From Actinomycetota bacterium (lineage in GTDB: Bacteria > Actinomycetota > CADDZG01 > WHSQ01), in contig JBKJZQ010000129.1 of assembly GCA_046715095.1 (NCBI GenBank), positions 1 to 31,174 on the forward strand: a stretch of DNA of 31,174 bases, read 5' to 3'. Shown in pieces: positions 2,844 through 24,888 of the stretch; the first letter of the stretch is position 1, and the number at the start of each line of letters is the position of its first letter. Under the pieces are notes generated by a model. It was given only the letters and a program-made list of their open reading frames with translations, ran no database searches and was not told the DNA's origin. The position numbers and the translations under genes were made by a program.

Positions 2844-2847
<4 letters not shown>

Positions 2848-2903
2848 GCGAGTCAGAGCTCACCATCCCGAGCGCCACACCCGCCGCGAAAGGGAAAGCA
2901 TGA
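2844..2903 (+). repeat. 56-nt MIRU-like intergenic element carrying a 19-aa bridge ORF (copy 1)
   Basis: atgagcgagtca...cacacccgccgcgaaagggaaagc|atga. ATGA overlaps the ilvB stop and the ilvN start. 43/56 identical, ungapped, to the copy at 23611-23666. Confidence 0.8.
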
Positions 2904-21160: not shown

Positions 21161-22204
21161 TCAGGCGAACAGGGTGAGGAACCGGTCGATCCCGAGGTTC
21201 CCTCCGGAGACGACGACCCCAACCTTTTGTCTTGCGTCTCGTCGAGACGACCCGCTTAGTCTTGCGTCTCGTCGAGACGACCCGCTTAGTCTCGCGTCCC
21301 GTCGAGACGACCCGCTCCTTCTTCCGGCGACGTCGACCTTTCCGGCCAGGATCGCAGCGAGGGCCGCGGCACCGGAAGGTTCGGCAACGGTCTTCATCCG
21401 TTCGAAGAGGAATGCCATTGCTCCGACGATCTCGGCATCGCTTACGAGGACGATGTCGTCCACCTTCGCCTTGATCACCTCGAAGGTGATCTCGCCGGGC
21501 GTCTCCACCTGTTGCCCGTCGGCGATCGTGCGCGGGACGTCGATCGACACCCGGTGACCGGCTTGAAGGGACCGCTTCGTGTCGTCTCCGGCTTCTGGTT
21601 CGACTCCGATAACCGAAGTGGACCTCGAAAGAGAGCGAGCCACCGTCGCGCACCCCGAGATCAGCCCGCCTCCTCCGACGGGAACGACCAGGATGTCGAG
21701 GTCGGGAACCTCCTCGAGCATCTCCAGGGCAACCGTTCCCTGCCCGGCGATGATGGTCGGATCGTCGTAGGGATGGATAAGGGTGAGGCCCCGTTCCTCC
21801 GCCAGCCTGTTCCCCAGTTCGGTCCGGTTCTCTCTGTACCGGTTGTACGTGATCACCTCGGCCCCGTATCCGTGCGTGGCGGCGAGCTTGACCTCGGGAG
21901 CGTCCTCCGGCATCAGGATCGTCGCGGTCGTACCGGCTATCCGGGCCGACAGCGCCACGGCCTGGGCGTGGTTGCCGGACGAGAAGGTGGTAACCCCTCG
22001 GCCCAGTTCCTCGGGGGACAGCGTCGATATCTTGTTGAACGCCCCTCTGAACTTGAACGCTCCACAACGCTGCAGGTTCTCGGCCTTCAGGAACAGATGC
22101 GCACCGACTGCCTCGTCGAGCGCTGTCGATGTGAGTAGGGGAGTCCGGTGGGCGACGCCGTCCAGCCGACGCGACGCGTCGCGGACGTCCTCCAGCTCGA
22201 TCAC
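21161..22204 (-). CDS. PLP-dependent threonine/serine dehydratase-family enzyme (hydroxyaspartate ammonia-lyase/serine racemase-like, no ACT domain) with a ~30-aa repeat insertion
   Basis: KAENLQRCGAFKFRGA (PLP lysine), SSGNHAQ, VPVGGGGLISG, EPSGA and VVSGGN motifs. Confidence 0.9.
   Translation of the reverse strand: MIELEDVRDASRRLDGVAHRTPLLTSTALDEAVGAHLFLKAENLQRCGAFKFRGAFNKISTLSPEELGRGVTTFSSGNHAQAVALSARIAGTTATILMPEDAPEVKLAATHGYGAEVITYNRYRENRTELGNRLAEERGLTLIHPYDDPTIIAGQGTVALEMLEEVPDLDILVVPVGGGGLISGCATVARSLSRSTSVIGVEPEAGDDTKRSLQAGHRVSIDVPRTIADGQQVETPGEITFEVIKAKVDDIVLVSDAEIVGAMAFLFERMKTVAEPSGAAALAAILAGKVDVAGRRSGSSRRDARLSGSSRRDARLSGSSRRDARQKVGVVVSGGNLGIDRFLTLFA
21229..21316. repeat. three tandem 30-nt palindrome-containing units, in frame within the dehydratase gene
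   Basis: Unit gtcttgcgtctcgtcgagacgacccgctta (two exact copies, third with 2 substitutions); core cgtctcg-t-cgagacg; encodes (SGSSRRDARL)x3. Confidence 0.95.
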
Positions 22205-22207
22205 GGT

Positions 22208-22711
22208 TTAAACGGGCTTGAACTGTTCGAAGGGGTTGCGGCAGTCGGCGCAGTAATAGAGGGCGCGGCATGGGGTCGGGCCGAACGGGTTCTCGTTCTG
22301 GGTGTTGGTGCTGCCGCAGAACGGACATGTCGCCACCTGGGGAAGGCCGATCTGGGTGATGAGCACCTGCTCTCCGTCCGCCGGAGGAGCGAGTCCGAAA
22401 TCCTTCAGCTTCCTGCGGCCATCCTCGGTGATCCTTGCGGTGGTCCAGGGAGGGCTGAACGTGGTCTCCACCGAGGCCTCCTCGATCCCATCGACCGCCT
22501 CGACCGCGGCCCTGACATCGGAGACGATCATCGAGATCGCCGGACACCCACTGAAGGTGGGAAGCACGATGATGCTGGCGTGAGCGCCGTCCGTGGTGAC
22601 CTTTTCGATCATGCCCATTTCGACCACGGACACCGCCGGGATCTCGGGATCGGGAACTCCGGCGAGGGCGTCCCAGATCGCGTCCTCGAGGACCCGCGTC
22701 GGAGCTACCAC
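22208..22711 (-). CDS. paaD: phenylacetyl-CoA 1,2-epoxidase subunit D
   Basis: VPDPEIPAVSVVEMG, PTFSGCPA, PPWTT, GLAPP, CPFCGS and CRALYYCADCRNPFEQFK motifs. Confidence 0.93.
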   Translation of the reverse strand: MVAPTRVLEDAIWDALAGVPDPEIPAVSVVEMGMIEKVTTDGAHASIIVLPTFSGCPAISMIVSDVRAAVEAVDGIEEASVETTFSPPWTTARITEDGRRKLKDFGLAPPADGEQVLITQIGLPQVATCPFCGSTNTQNENPFGPTPCRALYYCADCRNPFEQFKPV

Positions 22712-23553
22712 GATGCACCCGGATTGGCCCGGTAGGTCGACGTCATCTCATCCCACAAGGGGGTGAAGCTGTCCGAATGACGGCCCGCTCGGCCCCCGAG
22801 GCCTACGGTGGGAGCCCCGGTCCCGGCCGAACCGTTCTGATCCTGCGCCGCACCTTCGATCAGATCCCCCGATGAGGACGCGACGAACTCGGCGGCGCGG
22901 TCGTCGACCGCCCGGACCTCGGTCGGCAGGCCCATCCCGTCGAGGGCCTCGGCCGCCTTGGTGACGAACCTGGACCTCATCTCTTCGGAGGGAACGGGAA
23001 GCCACCCGGCTTCGACCGCGGCGTCCTCGAGCTCGAGCGGCTCGAAGATCCCGGTCGCGTCGGTGAACGCCTCGGACATTGAATCGATCAAGCGTGCGCG
23101 GCCTTCGACCGGCCCCTTCGAAACGCGCTGGAGCCAGGAGTCCGCGTGCAGCAGGTGGTAGCGCTCTTCCCGGCGGAGCTTGGTCGCGATCGCACTCAGC
23201 TCTTCGTGCGATGAGCTTTCGAGCGCCTCGAGCCGGATGTCATCGGCATGGTCGTAGAGCCAGTGCCGCGCAAGCGTGTACGCCCAGTTCCCGTTGGGGC
23301 GCTCGCAGATGAGCGCGTTCCGGTACTCGGACGGCTCGCGCCCCAGCGCGATGTGGTCCGGCTCGTCGCCGGTGAGCTTCGCTATCAGCGAGTAGAACGC
23401 GGACGCGTGGCCGATCTCGTCCTGCGCGATCGAGGAGAACGCGACGTCCTCTTCGATATGAGGAGCGTGGCCCGTCCATTCCGAATGCCGGTGGCCGAGG
23501 ATCAGCTCGTCGTCGGCGAGGGCGGTCAGGAGAGAGATCAGCGGGGCGTTCAT
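22705..23553 (-). CDS. paaC: phenylacetyl-CoA 1,2-epoxidase subunit C
   Basis: LADDELILGHR.SEWTGHAPHIEED, QDEIGHA, EERYH and PGASW motifs. Start at ATG23553 (GAAGGGG Shine-Dalgarno); an in-frame alternative at 23610 lies inside the repeat. Confidence 0.93.
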   Translation of the reverse strand: MNAPLISLLTALADDELILGHRHSEWTGHAPHIEEDVAFSSIAQDEIGHASAFYSLIAKLTGDEPDHIALGREPSEYRNALICERPNGNWAYTLARHWLYDHADDIRLEALESSSHEELSAIATKLRREERYHLLHADSWLQRVSKGPVEGRARLIDSMSEAFTDATGIFEPLELEDAAVEAGWLPVPSEEMRSRFVTKAAEALDGMGLPTEVRAVDDRAAEFVASSSGDLIEGAAQDQNGSAGTGAPTVGLGGRAGRHSDSFTPLWDEMTSTYRANPGASW

Positions 23554-23666
23554 GCTGTCCCCTTCGCGGCGGGCGTGCTGCGCAGGCGCAGTGTGTTTTG
23601 ACTCGCTCATGCTGTTCCCTTCGCGGCGGGCGTGCTGCGCAGGTGGGTGTGTTTTGACTCGCTCAT
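23551..23666 (-). repeat. tandem pair of the MIRU-like element (56-nt and 57-nt units; copies 2 and 3)
   Basis: atgagcgagtcaaaacacac...ctgcgcagcacgcccgccgcgaaggg(a/g)acagc repeated twice. Unit A encodes MSESKHTHLRSTPAAKGTA with ATGA overlaps at both ends; unit B is in frame with paaC. Confidence 0.9.
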
Positions 23667-23962
23667 GTCTGGTGTTCGATCTCCCGAGCCCGCACGAGGG
23701 CCTTCTCGCGTTTCTGGATCACGTCGCGATAAGCGGAGGCGAACCGGTAGCTCTTGTCCGCGGCGATCTCGAGGATCGATTCGTCCTTGAACGAGTGCAC
23801 ATCGCTCCGGCGGACGACCCACAGATGGTCGCCCTCACGACGCCTCACGAAGCACTCCTTCGCCATCATCAAGGCCATGTCGGGATCCGGTGCGATCACC
23901 GCGCCGGCGTGCTCGAACGGGTCCTTGTGCCCCGAGCGTCGGAAGACCTCATAGATCTCCAT
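23663..23962 (-). CDS. paaB: phenylacetyl-CoA 1,2-epoxidase subunit B
   Basis: MEIYEVFRR, HAGAVIAPDPDMAL, RRREG..LWVVR and DKSYR motifs; start at 23962, not the ORF-track 24349. Confidence 0.92.
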   Translation of the reverse strand: MEIYEVFRRSGHKDPFEHAGAVIAPDPDMALMMAKECFVRRREGDHLWVVRRSDVHSFKDESILEIAADKSYRFASAYRDVIQKREKALVRAREIEHQT

Positions 23963-23964
23963 CG

Positions 23965-24888
23965 CTAGGCGACGTGGATAGCGGGCTCGGCCATGGTTTC
24001 GCGCACCCACCGGTGATCGTCGTACATCTGCTTCCGCCACGCGAGCCGGCGCTCGGTCTCGGGTCCCTCGTTCTTCTTGATCGAGTCGAGAGGTCCCCAG
24101 TCGATGTCCTCCTCGTTGAGCAGCCAGTGGCCCGAGGACTCGTCGTGGAAGGGCGTGGGGGTTGGAAGCGTGAAGCCCAGCTCGAAGATCTTCGGCACGT
24201 AGCGGTCGAGGAATTCCTGCCTCAGATCCTCGTTCGTCCGGGTCTTGACCTTCCAGCGAAGCAACAGGTCTTTCTCGACGTTCGAGCGGGGGCCGAAGAA
24301 GTGGATGATCGCCAGCCACCACCGGTCGAGGGCGTCCTGGAACATCCACCTCTGGTGATCCGTCCCGGACGCCAGTTCGAGCGTGATGTCTTCACCGTGA
24401 CGAAGGTGGAGCTGCTCTTCCGCGCAGATCCGCTTCAGCACGCGCGTGTAGGGGGCGTAGGACGATTCCCTGAGCGCCGCCTGGGTGACGAGAGCGGCAC
24501 CGTCTATGAGCCAGCCGATGAGAGCGACGTCGCCCCAGTGGTGAACGGGGTAGTGGAAGACGTTGTGGAACTTGGATCTGCCGTTGATGAGGTCCGCGTA
24601 CATCGCCTCACGGCTCTTGCCGAGGTCCTCCGCGACGCGGTAGAGGAGCTGTGCGTGCCCGACCTCGTCCTGGATCTTCGCCGCGAGCGACATCTTCCGT
24701 CGCAGCGAAGGAGCGCTCGGGAGACGCTCGCGCTCGGGGAGAGCGCCCATGATCTCGGAGTTGGCGTGCATCTCGATGAACTTGAGGACGCCGCGCCGGT
24801 AGTCGTCGGGCATCCAGTCCTCCGTCTCGACCTTCCCACCCTCTTCGATCTTTGCGTTGAATCGGGCCAGCTTCTCTTCGTAGGTCAC
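23965..24888 (-). CDS. paaA: phenylacetyl-CoA 1,2-epoxidase catalytic subunit A
   Basis: KVETEDWMPDDYR, APSLRRK, KIQDEVGH and RICAEE.LH di-iron ligand motifs. Confidence 0.95.
   Translation of the reverse strand: MTYEEKLARFNAKIEEGGKVETEDWMPDDYRRGVLKFIEMHANSEIMGALPERERLPSAPSLRRKMSLAAKIQDEVGHAQLLYRVAEDLGKSREAMYADLINGRSKFHNVFHYPVHHWGDVALIGWLIDGAALVTQAALRESSYAPYTRVLKRICAEEQLHLRHGEDITLELASGTDHQRWMFQDALDRWWLAIIHFFGPRSNVEKDLLLRWKVKTRTNEDLRQEFLDRYVPKIFELGFTLPTPTPFHDESSGHWLLNEEDIDWGPLDSIKKNEGPETERRLAWRKQMYDDHRWVRETMAEPAIHVA

What the first reader, a model, noticed from the sequence alone, without database searches (positions are those of the whole stretch)
23551..23666. Tandem MIRU-like array between paaB and paaC, with one unit captured in frame
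Seen: unit A (56 nt) is a complete ATGA-to-ATGA bridge ORF; unit B (57 nt) has one extra base, so its ATG reads straight into paaC and could add 19 residues. Removing all 113 nt restores a direct paaB-TGA/paaC-ATG overlap. Inference: the element duplicates in tandem like MIRU-VNTR loci, ribosomes can relay paaB to unit A to unit B/paaC, and 1-nt indels let it donate new N-termini to proteins.
Basis: partly seen in the sequence, partly recalled or inferred. Interest (0 to 1): 0.75.

Follow-up and report, generated by a model that had tools for sequence, protein, structure and literature searches.

The report
MIRU-like relay repeat between paaB and paaC
The 113 bases between paaB and paaC are two tandem copies of a small mobile repeat that sits on stop/start overlaps inside operons and carries a throw-away mini reading frame. 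It has the same design as the MIRU repeats of mycobacteria. One copy has slipped into frame with paaC.

Summary
On the minus strand paaB ends in ATGA. Unit A (56 nt) is a 19-codon ATGA-to-ATGA mini-ORF. Unit B (57 nt) reads in frame into paaC.

It is not a local oddity. The MAG holds 21 copies at 19 loci, almost all exactly 56 nt, co-oriented with their genes, and wedged between the stop of one gene and the start of the next (ilvB-ilvN, pyrB-pyrC and others). The family was found only in this genus: 15, 14, 2 and 0 copies in four sister species, and none in about 108 other genomes of the class.

Sister species have empty sites with a direct ATGA overlap, including at paaB-paaC. They also show copy-number differences and in-frame scars of 15 nt. 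An independent soil metagenome contig carries the same two-unit array with the 57-nt in-frame unit, so it is not an assembly error.

There is no RNA structure and no selection on the peptide (dN/dS about 1.4). Length stays in the 3n+2 class or is rescued by an internal ATGA, which points to a ribosome-relay constraint.

Translation itself, and use of the extended PaaC start, are untested. The design matches MIRUs, but I detected no sequence similarity to anything in five mycobacterial genomes. This scan has already noted about 40 similar families on other DNA, though not this one.

The parts
23663..23962 (-). paaB (99 aa plus stop); its TGA (23665..23663) overlaps the ATG of unit A
   Evidence: NCBIfam TIGR02157 is the best hit but below cut-off; 97% identical to G002 PaaB.
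23611..23666 (-). Unit A: 56-nt element copy. The 19-codon mini-ORF starts at ATG 23666, and its stop (TGA 23609..23607) overlaps the ATG of unit B.
   Evidence: CM R1 61 bits.
23554..23610 (-). Unit B: 57-nt copy (net +1). Its ATG (23610) is in frame with paaC and would add 19 residues (MSESKHTAPAQHARREGDS).
   Evidence: the same length and frame occur in the independent contig of run X4.
23558..23565 (-). Purine-rich Shine-Dalgarno-like GAAGGGGA at the 3' end of unit B, 5-12 nt before the canonical paaC ATG. The family consensus here is GGGAAAG.
   Evidence: Function inferred.
22705..23553 (-). paaC, canonical form (282 aa, MNAPL...). This is the normal length and N-terminus for the family.
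   Evidence: NCBIfam TIGR02158 at 209.6 bits; homologues are 277-287 aa and P0014 starts MNDSL.
23965..24888 (-). paaA, upstream operon partner
   Evidence: TIGR02156 at 358 bits.
22208..22711 (-). paaD; its GTG start overlaps the paaC stop by 7 nt (22705-22711)
2844..2903 (+). Third copy in the window: a 56-nt unit plus trailing ATGA between ilvB and ilvN
   Evidence: The site is empty in G004, G003 and G001, and G002 has a 15-nt scar there.

Best explanation
The paaB-paaC spacer is a two-unit tandem array of a dispersed, genus-restricted 56-nt intercistronic element.

Shown:
- The element lies exactly on stop/start overlaps. It begins with ATGA on the stop of the gene before and ends with a purine-rich ribosome-binding-like motif plus ATGA on the start of the gene after.
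- It carries a 19-codon frame whose length (3n+2) keeps both overlaps.
- It comes and goes between closely related species, duplicates in tandem, and decays by small deletions between short repeats.

Inferred:
- On the paa mRNA, a ribosome ending paaB at UGA restarts on the overlapping AUG of unit A, reads 19 codons, and stops at the UGA that overlaps the AUG of unit B.
- Because unit B is 57 nt, that ribosome continues in frame into paaC and makes a PaaC with 19 extra N-terminal residues.
- Direct initiation at the canonical AUG behind GAAGGGGA can still give the normal 282-aa form.
- The peptide itself has no function. The frame exists so that the insertion does not break translational coupling, which is why the element is tolerated inside operons for enzyme subunits.

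The enzyme or process that spreads it is unknown. The invariant 11-mer TGAGCGAGTCA at its 5' end is the best candidate for a recognition or restart signal.
For: Family:
- 21 copies at 19 loci in G000 by BLAST, nhmmer and the CM; nothing else down to E = 1.
- 18 of 21 are exactly 56 nt, and nt 2-12 are invariant.

Context:
- In 13 of 19 loci a long ORF ends at the leading TGA, and in nearly all a long ORF starts at the trailing ATG.
- A walk through NTGA overlaps reaches the next gene, or the contig end, in at least 16 of 19 G000 loci and in nearly all loci of G002, G003 and G004 where the array start was available.
- Neighbours are operon partners: ilvB-ilvN, pyrB-pyrC, oxidoreductase alpha-beta, yceG-aroE, paaB-paaC.

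Mobility:
- The filled G000 sites at ilvB-ilvN, two sites on C13 and pyrB-pyrC are empty in species that are 80-96% identical over the same regions. Those empty sites have a plain (A/G)TGA overlap.
- paaB-paaC is empty in all 26 relatives examined and in a metagenome allele.

Tandem dynamics:
- Arrays occur in G000 C22, in G002 C115, C112, C83 and C22, and in G004 C357, C265 and C215, several of them cut by contig ends.
- The BKACE locus has 1 full unit in G000 and 2 in G002.

Relay constraint:
- dN/dS is 1.36, and third codon positions are the least variable.
- Length variants of 71 and 32 nt keep 3n+2.
- The 55-nt subfamily has an internal ATGA that chains two mini-ORFs.
- The only unrescued 3n+1 copy (C28) has no gene behind it and has lost its trailing ATGA.

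The array is real: contig X4 spans it with two units, of 71 and 57 nt.
Against: - There is no direct evidence of translation: no Ribo-seq or proteomics, and the organism is uncultured.
- Frame 1 being open in copies of one ancestor is weak evidence by itself.
- The indel argument rests on about 9 variants (roughly P = 0.03), and some of them are related.
- The invariant 11-mer is not explained by the relay model.
- No mobilising gene was found.
- The read evidence is from Logan contigs, not raw reads. In the runs most like the window (X1, X5) the array is shattered into short unitigs, so no single piece spans it there.
- All public PaaC homologues listed lack the 19-residue extension, so the long form, if made, is a peculiarity of this lineage.
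Confidence: 0.8

Rival explanations
1. Assembly artefact: the tandem duplication and/or the extra base of unit B were created by mis-assembly of a dispersed repeat in a fragmented MAG.
For: G000 has 237 contigs. Arrays of this repeat break assemblies in G002 and G004. In runs X1 and X5 the region is split into short unitigs with branches.
Against: A 3,320-nt contig from a different study (X4) spans 23300-23900 with 16 substitutions. It has two units, and unit B is again 57 nt, open and in frame. The two units differ at several positions, so they are not a collapsed or expanded identical repeat.
Confidence: 0.04
2. The mini-ORF encodes a functional micropeptide (a leader or regulatory peptide, or a small protein) that is conserved for its sequence.
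For: The ORF is open in nearly all copies, and its first four codons (MSES) are invariant.
Against: dN/dS in the ORF frame is about 1.36, and third positions are the most conserved, so the constraint is on nucleotides, not residues. The same ORF sits in about 19 unrelated operons. Variants of 24, 10 and 8+11 codons are tolerated. Rfam finds nothing in the array region, and the tested ORF that begins with a unit (C28) matches no NCBIfam family.
Confidence: 0.04
3. A structured RNA or DNA element of the REP/BIME or MITE type (a hairpin acting as terminator, stabiliser or transposase target), with the ORF incidental.
For: Most small bacterial dispersed repeats are of this type. MIRUs themselves have been said to show imperfect inverted repeats (PMC3184786).
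Against: The consensus fold is -1.9 kcal/mol with 6 pairs and no covariation. The array folds no better than shuffles, z = +0.76. There is no Rfam match. No Y1/RAYT transposase (PF01797) was found in G000-G004. Strict co-orientation with genes and exact codon-overlap placement are not expected of REPs.
Confidence: 0.04
4. The element is real, but the mini-ORF is never translated. It works, or is tolerated, simply as a spacer that brings its own ribosome-binding site, so PaaC is made only from the MNAPL start and the in-frame unit B is silent.
For: A conserved purine-rich motif lies 5-12 nt before the trailing ATG in all copies. Six G000 copies have no overlapping upstream gene, so they need independent initiation anyway. 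The canonical PaaC length is universal.
Against: This model does not explain several things: why the 5' ATGA and 11-mer are invariant, why length stays 3n+2, why the 55-nt subfamily carries an internal ATGA, or why the only unrescued 3n+1 copy is the one with no gene behind it.
Confidence: 0.12

Closest known systems
MIRUs, mycobacterial interspersed repetitive units (Supply et al. 1997, as summarised in PMC12548453 and PMC3184786)
   Same: - Short (40-100 bp) dispersed repeats in tens of copies.
- Located inside operons and co-oriented with the genes.
- Inserted at start codons, with a small ORF coupled to the next gene at -4 spacing (ATGA).
- Four-base direct repeats at filled sites, and empty sites in relatives.
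- Occur in tandem arrays whose copy number varies.
   Different: - No detectable sequence similarity: the R1 model gives only partial hits of 20.5 bits or less in five PPE-bearing mycobacterial genomes.
- Different actinobacterial class, in an uncultured soil and permafrost lineage.
- A single 56-nt size class, with no predicted hairpins or inverted repeats.
- An invariant 11-nt 5' end.
- Restricted to one genus among the genomes searched.
Other MIRU-like start-codon repeat families noted earlier in this scan (Acidimicrobiia, Gaiellales, Rokubacteria; e.g. e1-2377408, e1-2313904, e1-4118322, e1-4875399)
   Same: ATGA-to-ATGA mini-ORF repeats at gene junctions. They are dispersed, can expand in tandem, and are read as ribosome relays.
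   Different: Those notes describe longer units (62-135 nt), mostly rich in hairpins. The notes are unchecked AI notes and I did not test them.
REP/BIME and MITE-type small repeats (PMC3184786)
   Same: Small, non-autonomous, multi-copy intergenic repeats.
   Different: Those are palindromic and hairpin-forming, are not phased with codons, and depend on RAYT or IS transposases. Here there is no structure and no Y1 transposase.
Rickettsia palindromic elements (RPE) inserted in frame in genes (from my own knowledge; not checked here)
   Same: Small repeats that end up as extra residues in proteins.
   Different: RPEs are palindromic and insert within coding sequences. Here the extra residues arise secondarily, when an intercistronic unit changes length to 3n.

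Membership tests
MIRU (by design and behaviour) | Short (about 40-100 bp) repeat dispersed in tens of copies | tested here: met
   56 nt; 21 copies at 19 loci in an 84%-complete 1.9-Mb MAG; 15 and 14 copies in two sister species.
MIRU (by design and behaviour) | Lies between genes of one operon, co-oriented with them | tested here: met
   Every copy with flanking genes is co-oriented. Examples are ilvB-ilvN, pyrB-pyrC, korA-korB-like and paaB-paaC.
MIRU (by design and behaviour) | Internal small ORF whose ends overlap the neighbouring stop and start codons (-4 spacing) | tested here: met
   ATGA (rarely GTGA or TTGA) at both ends. The NTGA walk reaches the next gene, or the contig end, in at least 16 of 19 G000 loci and in nearly all loci in relatives where the array start was available.
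MIRU (by design and behaviour) | Filled versus empty sites in relatives, with a four-base direct repeat | tested here: met
   Empty sites with a single (A/G)TGA at four G000 loci and at paaB-paaC. The shared repeat is often longer (ATGAGC, ATGAGCGAG).
MIRU (by design and behaviour) | Tandem arrays with variable unit number (VNTR) | tested here: met
   Arrays of 2 to at least 4 units. Counts are 1 versus 2 units at the BKACE locus, 2 versus 1.6 at the M16 locus, and 2 versus a scar at paaC between G000 and G002. Variation within one species was not shown.
MIRU (by descent) | Sequence similarity to mycobacterial MIRUs | tested here: not met
   The R1 model gives only partial, GC-rich hits of 20.5 bits or less in five PPE-bearing mycobacterial genomes, none with the 5' 11-mer. 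Caveat: I had no reference MIRU sequence, so this is a search of genomes, not a direct alignment.
MIRU (by design and behaviour) | Transcribed as part of the polycistronic mRNA, with the mini-ORF translated | not testable with these tools
   No RNA or ribosome data were laid; the single read-laying run was used on DNA runs.
REP/RAYT elements | Conserved palindrome or hairpin, with a Y1 (RAYT) transposase in the genome | tested here: not met
   No consensus structure and no covariation; z = +0.76; PF01797 not found in G000-G004.

The most novel reading that the evidence does not exclude
The family is a translation-neutral mobile element that targets stop/start overlaps through its invariant 11-mer TGAGCGAGTCA, using a recombination or priming activity not yet known. 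Its decay products are a regular source of new coding sequence: N-terminal extensions (unit B on PaaC, the 54-nt units in G004, the 15-nt scars on IlvN and PaaC in G002) and C-terminal tails (the BKACE gene end). It would then give a traceable, repeated route for de novo birth of protein termini in operons.
Probability: 0.25. Interest if true: 0.75.

Novelty: new variant of a known kind. Interest (0 to 1): 0.5.

Why it matters
MIRUs are used worldwide for typing tuberculosis strains, but why they are tolerated inside operons, and how they move, have stayed largely conjecture since 1997.

A second, sequence-unrelated family with the same architecture, in a distant soil actinobacterium, argues that start-codon docking with a relay mini-ORF is a convergent or general strategy rather than a mycobacterial curiosity.

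This family is unusually clean. It has one size class, no hairpins, and recent gains and losses between species 91-96% identical in the flanking DNA. It also supplies natural frame experiments: 3n+2 kept, 3n+1 rescued by an internal ATGA, and 3n fused to the gene. These translate directly into reporter designs.

It also shows concretely how such repeats leave residues on protein termini. On the practical side, it warns annotators that the start codons of genes behind such units are ambiguous.

Tried and rejected
- RNA structure: RNAalifold on 19 copies and a single-strand fold of the array gave nothing. Rfam at E <= 1 gave no match.
- Peptide selection: rejected by dN/dS and codon-position entropy.
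- RAYT/Y1 transposase as the mobiliser: PF01797 not found in G000-G004. No other candidate was looked for.
- Wider distribution: a pattern scan of genome contigs found only the two sister MAGs, one stray contig and chance hits. The CM search of all 113 held genomes of the class gave only one marginal partial hit outside the genus (G093, E = 7e-4), which I treat as chance.
- Genome G391 (5_8_m_bin7): it holds a single copy, on a 5.6-kb contig 95% identical to G000 contig C9, and it has no paa locus. The contig is probably mis-binned, so I did not use it as a further host.
- Target preference: a crude ORF-based census of (A/G)TGA junctions is inflated by spurious long ORFs in a 65% GC genome. 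I use it only to say that ATGAGC after the element (17 of 19 loci) is well above background.
- Within-species copy number at paaC: Logan unitigs of X1 and X5 are too short to count units.
- History of the paaC locus: I could not resolve the exact order of events that gave both G000 units their locus-specific AAAACACAC and gave G002 its AAAGCACAC scar. Shared ancestry of an element at this site is the simplest reading.

Full report
**Observation**

The paa genes lie on the minus strand: paaA 24888..23965, paaB 23962..23663, paaC from 23553 to 22705, and paaD 22711..22208. NCBIfam confirms PaaA, PaaC and PaaD above their cut-offs, and PaaB as the best hit for its gene although below cut-off.

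- paaB ends ...CAG ACA TGA, and the TGA overlaps an ATG at 23666.
- From that ATG a 19-codon frame (MSESKHTHLRSTPAAKGTA) runs to a TGA that overlaps the next ATG at 23610. This is unit A, 56 nt.
- From the second ATG the frame is open for 19 codons and then meets, in frame, the ATG AAC GCC (MNAPL) of paaC. This is unit B, 57 nt, giving a 301-aa ORF against 282 aa.
- TRF reports the array (period 57, 2.1 copies, 93%, score 206).
- The first 20 nt of the unit occur three times in the window against none expected.
- Removing the 113 nt leaves ACATGAACG, a direct overlap.

One detail differs from the finding. Unit B is not unit A plus one base. A 5-nt stretch (CCCAC) is replaced by 6 nt (CTGCGC), which makes a CTGCGC doublet.

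**A dispersed family**

The window lies on contig C129 of a 1.92-Mb, 237-contig, 65% GC MAG that is 84% complete. BLAST, an nhmmer profile and a sequence-only covariance model (R1, built from alignment A1) all find the same 21 copies at 19 loci, and nothing else down to E = 1.

- Eighteen of the 21 copies are exactly 56 nt from the leading ATGA to the trailing ATGA.
- Positions 2-12 (TGAGCGAGTCA) are identical in every aligned copy. All 19 occurrences of that 11-mer in the genome are element copies.
- Positions 13-34 vary.
- Positions 35-56 are conserved and end in a purine-rich GGGAAAG-like motif 5-12 nt before the trailing ATG.

**Context**

Every copy with flanking genes is co-oriented with them. 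In 13 of 19 loci a long ORF (126-790 codons as crude stop-to-stop frames; the real paaB is 99 aa) stops at the leading TGA. In nearly all loci a long ORF starts at the trailing ATG.

Pfam identifies the neighbours as classical operon partners:
- ilvB-ilvN, the other copy in this window (2844-2903);
- pyrB-pyrC;
- the alpha and beta subunits of a 2-oxoacid:ferredoxin oxidoreductase;
- yceG-aroE;
- a BKACE enzyme and a biotinyl carrier;
- a monooxygenase, M20 peptidase and xanthine-dehydrogenase-type chain with two copies.

A mechanical walk starts at the leading start codon and hops at each NTGA overlap. It reaches the next long gene, or the contig end, in at least 16 of 19 G000 loci, and in nearly all loci of the sister species where the array start was available.

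**Distribution and mobility**

R1 finds the family only in the window's genus: G000 21 copies, G002 15, G004 14, G003 2, and none in G001 (97% complete, 3 contigs). It is absent from the other roughly 108 genomes held for the class, apart from one marginal partial hit.

A pattern scan of the species-level genome collection returned only the two sister MAGs (labelled Actinomycetota bacterium 5_8_m_bin21 and Dino_bin32), one stray contig and chance hits.

Orthologous sites show recent gain and loss:
- The ilvB-ilvN site is empty in G004, G003 and G001.
- Both C13 sites are empty in G002 and the others.
- The pyrB-pyrC site is empty in G002, which is about 95% identical to G000 there. G004 has a diverged 54-nt copy at the same place.
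- Empty sites show a single (A/G)TGA overlap.
- Filled sites have ATGA on both sides. The right-hand gene very often continues GC or GCGAG like the element's own 5' end (17 of 19 loci start ATGAGC). This suggests a target preference or a homology-assisted process.

**The paaB-paaC site in relatives**

None of 26 relatives has the element there. Most, including the three same-genus genomes, show a direct ATGA overlap with paaC starting MS(D/E/N)....

Four of those genomes (G008, G010, G015, G023) are unpublished. They contribute only to the counts. No conclusion depends on them and none of their sequence is quoted.

PaaC homologues in the public protein collection are 277-287 aa. One starts MNDSL, so MNAPL is a normal native start, and none carries the 19-residue extension.

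The closest relative, G002, together with a 15-member public cluster (P0001, 94% identical), starts MSEKHT+NDSLISLL. That is 15 extra in-frame bases. Their AAAGCACAC matches 8 of 9 positions of the locus-specific AAAACACAC in both G000 units, where the family consensus is GAGCTCAC. The simplest reading has two steps: an element was already at this junction in the common ancestor, and G002 then lost most of it and kept a five-codon scar as the new PaaC N-terminus.

**Read-level check**

Sixteen runs listed as DNA or of unrecorded type, mostly soil, sediment and permafrost metagenomes, hold 46% or more of the sampled words of the stretch. I laid Logan contigs of four of them, from four different studies.

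- X4 has one 3,320-nt contig spanning 23300-23900, with 16 substitutions and a 15-nt insertion inside unit A. Rebuilt, unit A is 71 nt (still 3n+2, a 24-codon ATGA-to-ATGA frame). Unit B is again 57 nt, open and in frame with paaC despite 8 substitutions. The array and the +1 state are therefore real and older than this strain split.
- X3 has a contig from a relative about 92% identical that joins paaB to paaC through GGGCATGAGCAATGAT. This is an element-less allele with a direct overlap (MSNDPLISLL).
- In X1 and X5 the array is broken into short unitigs with branches to other unit variants, so units cannot be counted there.

**Tandem dynamics**

- Pairs of units occur at G000 C22, G002 C115 and C22, and G004 C357.
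- Identical units run into contig ends at G002 C112 and C83 and at G004 C265 and C215, which implies arrays of at least four units that break assemblies.
- At the BKACE locus G000 has one full unit and G002 two. In both genomes the last 17-20 nt of the upstream gene equal the 3' end of the local units and co-vary with it. This indicates exchange within the array and a C-terminal tail derived from a unit.
- At the M16-peptidase locus G000 has two units. G002 has one full unit plus a 32-nt unit shortened between two TGAGC repeats.

**What is constrained**

- There is no RNA structure. The consensus fold is -1.9 kcal/mol with no covarying pair, the array folds no better than shuffles (z = +0.76), and there is no Rfam hit.
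- The peptide is not under purifying selection: dN/dS is 1.36, and third codon positions are the least variable.
- Phase is kept. Variants of 71 and 32 nt remain 3n+2.
- The 55-nt subfamily (C43 in G000; C22 and C247 in G002) carries an internal ATGA that chains an 8-codon and an 11-codon frame. Its 56-nt sister copy (C198) has one more A and a single frame.
- The only unrescued 3n+1 copy, C28, lies at the end of a gene facing a convergent gene. It has nothing to couple to and has lost its trailing ATGA.
- The 3n variants are all in-frame fusions to the next gene: unit B here, two 54-nt units in G004, and the 15-nt scars at ilvN and paaC in G002.
- No length variant in front of a gene breaks the chain. 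With about nine variants this is suggestive (roughly P = 0.03), not conclusive.

**Mechanism**

- Shown: the architecture, its conservation, the gains and losses, and the tandem behaviour.
- Inferred: ribosomes finishing the upstream gene restart on the overlapping AUG, read the throw-away frame, and are delivered to the next start, so the insertion does not uncouple subunit genes.
- For paaC the chain paaB to unit A to unit B leads into the gene itself, which predicts a 301-aa PaaC. The GAAGGGGA before the canonical AUG leaves room for the 282-aa form too.
- I put the relay at about 0.65 and production of the long form at about 0.5.
- How the element spreads is unknown. No Y1 transposase was found, and the invariant 11-mer remains unexplained.

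**Comparison with known elements**

This is the design described for mycobacterial MIRUs:
- short repeats that insert at start codons, with an internal ORF coupled at -4 spacing (PMC12548453, citing Supply et al. 1997);
- 40-100 bp, 40-50 copies, four-base direct repeats, empty sites in relatives, polycistronic (PMC3184786).

All the behavioural criteria I could test are met. Descent is not supported: R1 finds only weak partial GC-rich matches in five PPE-bearing mycobacterial genomes, although I had no reference MIRU sequence to align directly. I found no paper in the held library on MIRU-like elements outside mycobacteria.

This scan has already recorded about 40 notes on comparable families in Acidimicrobiia, Gaiellales and Rokubacteria. 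Those are unchecked AI notes. A sequence look-up found none on this family. The ilvB-ilvN copy of this window was noted separately.

**Verdict**

It is a new, sequence-unrelated variant of a known kind of element. It is of moderate interest, mainly for its clean natural experiments on reading-frame phase and for direct examples of repeat-derived protein termini.

Noticed in passing
L090 (G002:C151), orthologous to window 2844-2903: At the ilvB-ilvN junction the sister species G002 keeps only 15 nt of the element (its first 13 nt plus GC). This is in frame with ilvN and would add MSESG to IlvN. G004, G003 and G001 are empty at that site.
   Followed up: partly
L003 (G000:C139) and L070 (G002:C115): The last 17-20 nt of the BKACE gene upstream of the array equal the 3' end of the local units and co-vary with them in each genome. 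G000 has 1 full unit and G002 has 2. This looks like a unit-derived C-terminal tail plus concerted evolution within the array.
   Followed up: partly
L017:1501-1560 (G000:C28): This copy lies behind a gene stop (TGATGA) and faces a convergent gene. It is 55 nt and has lost its trailing ATGA. It is the only copy with no gene to couple to and the only one whose relay is broken. The 74-codon ORF it opens has no family match and is probably spurious.
   Followed up: partly
L074/L118 (G004:C265 end, C215 start); L073/L075 (G002:C112 end, C83 start): Arrays of identical 56-nt units run into contig ends, so longer arrays (at least 4 units) exist and break short-read assemblies. Copy counts from MAGs are therefore lower bounds.
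   Followed up: no
window 21229-21316: A 30-nt tandem repeat (2.9 copies, 96% matches) lies in frame inside a PLP-dependent threonine-dehydratase-like gene on the minus strand, repeating RRDARLSGSS. It is unrelated in sequence to the 56-nt element.
   Followed up: no
window 22705-22711: The paaD GTG start overlaps the paaC stop by 7 nt, and paaA and paaB are 2 nt apart (paaA stop 23965-23967, paaB ATG at 23962). The paaB-paaC junction is therefore the only spaced one in the operon.
   Followed up: no
L087 / G391:C211: A 5.6-kb contig binned in another MAG (5_8_m_bin7, 3.1 Mb) is 95% identical to G000 contig C9 and carries the same element copy. That genome has no other copy and no paa locus, so the contig is probably mis-binned.
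   Followed up: yes
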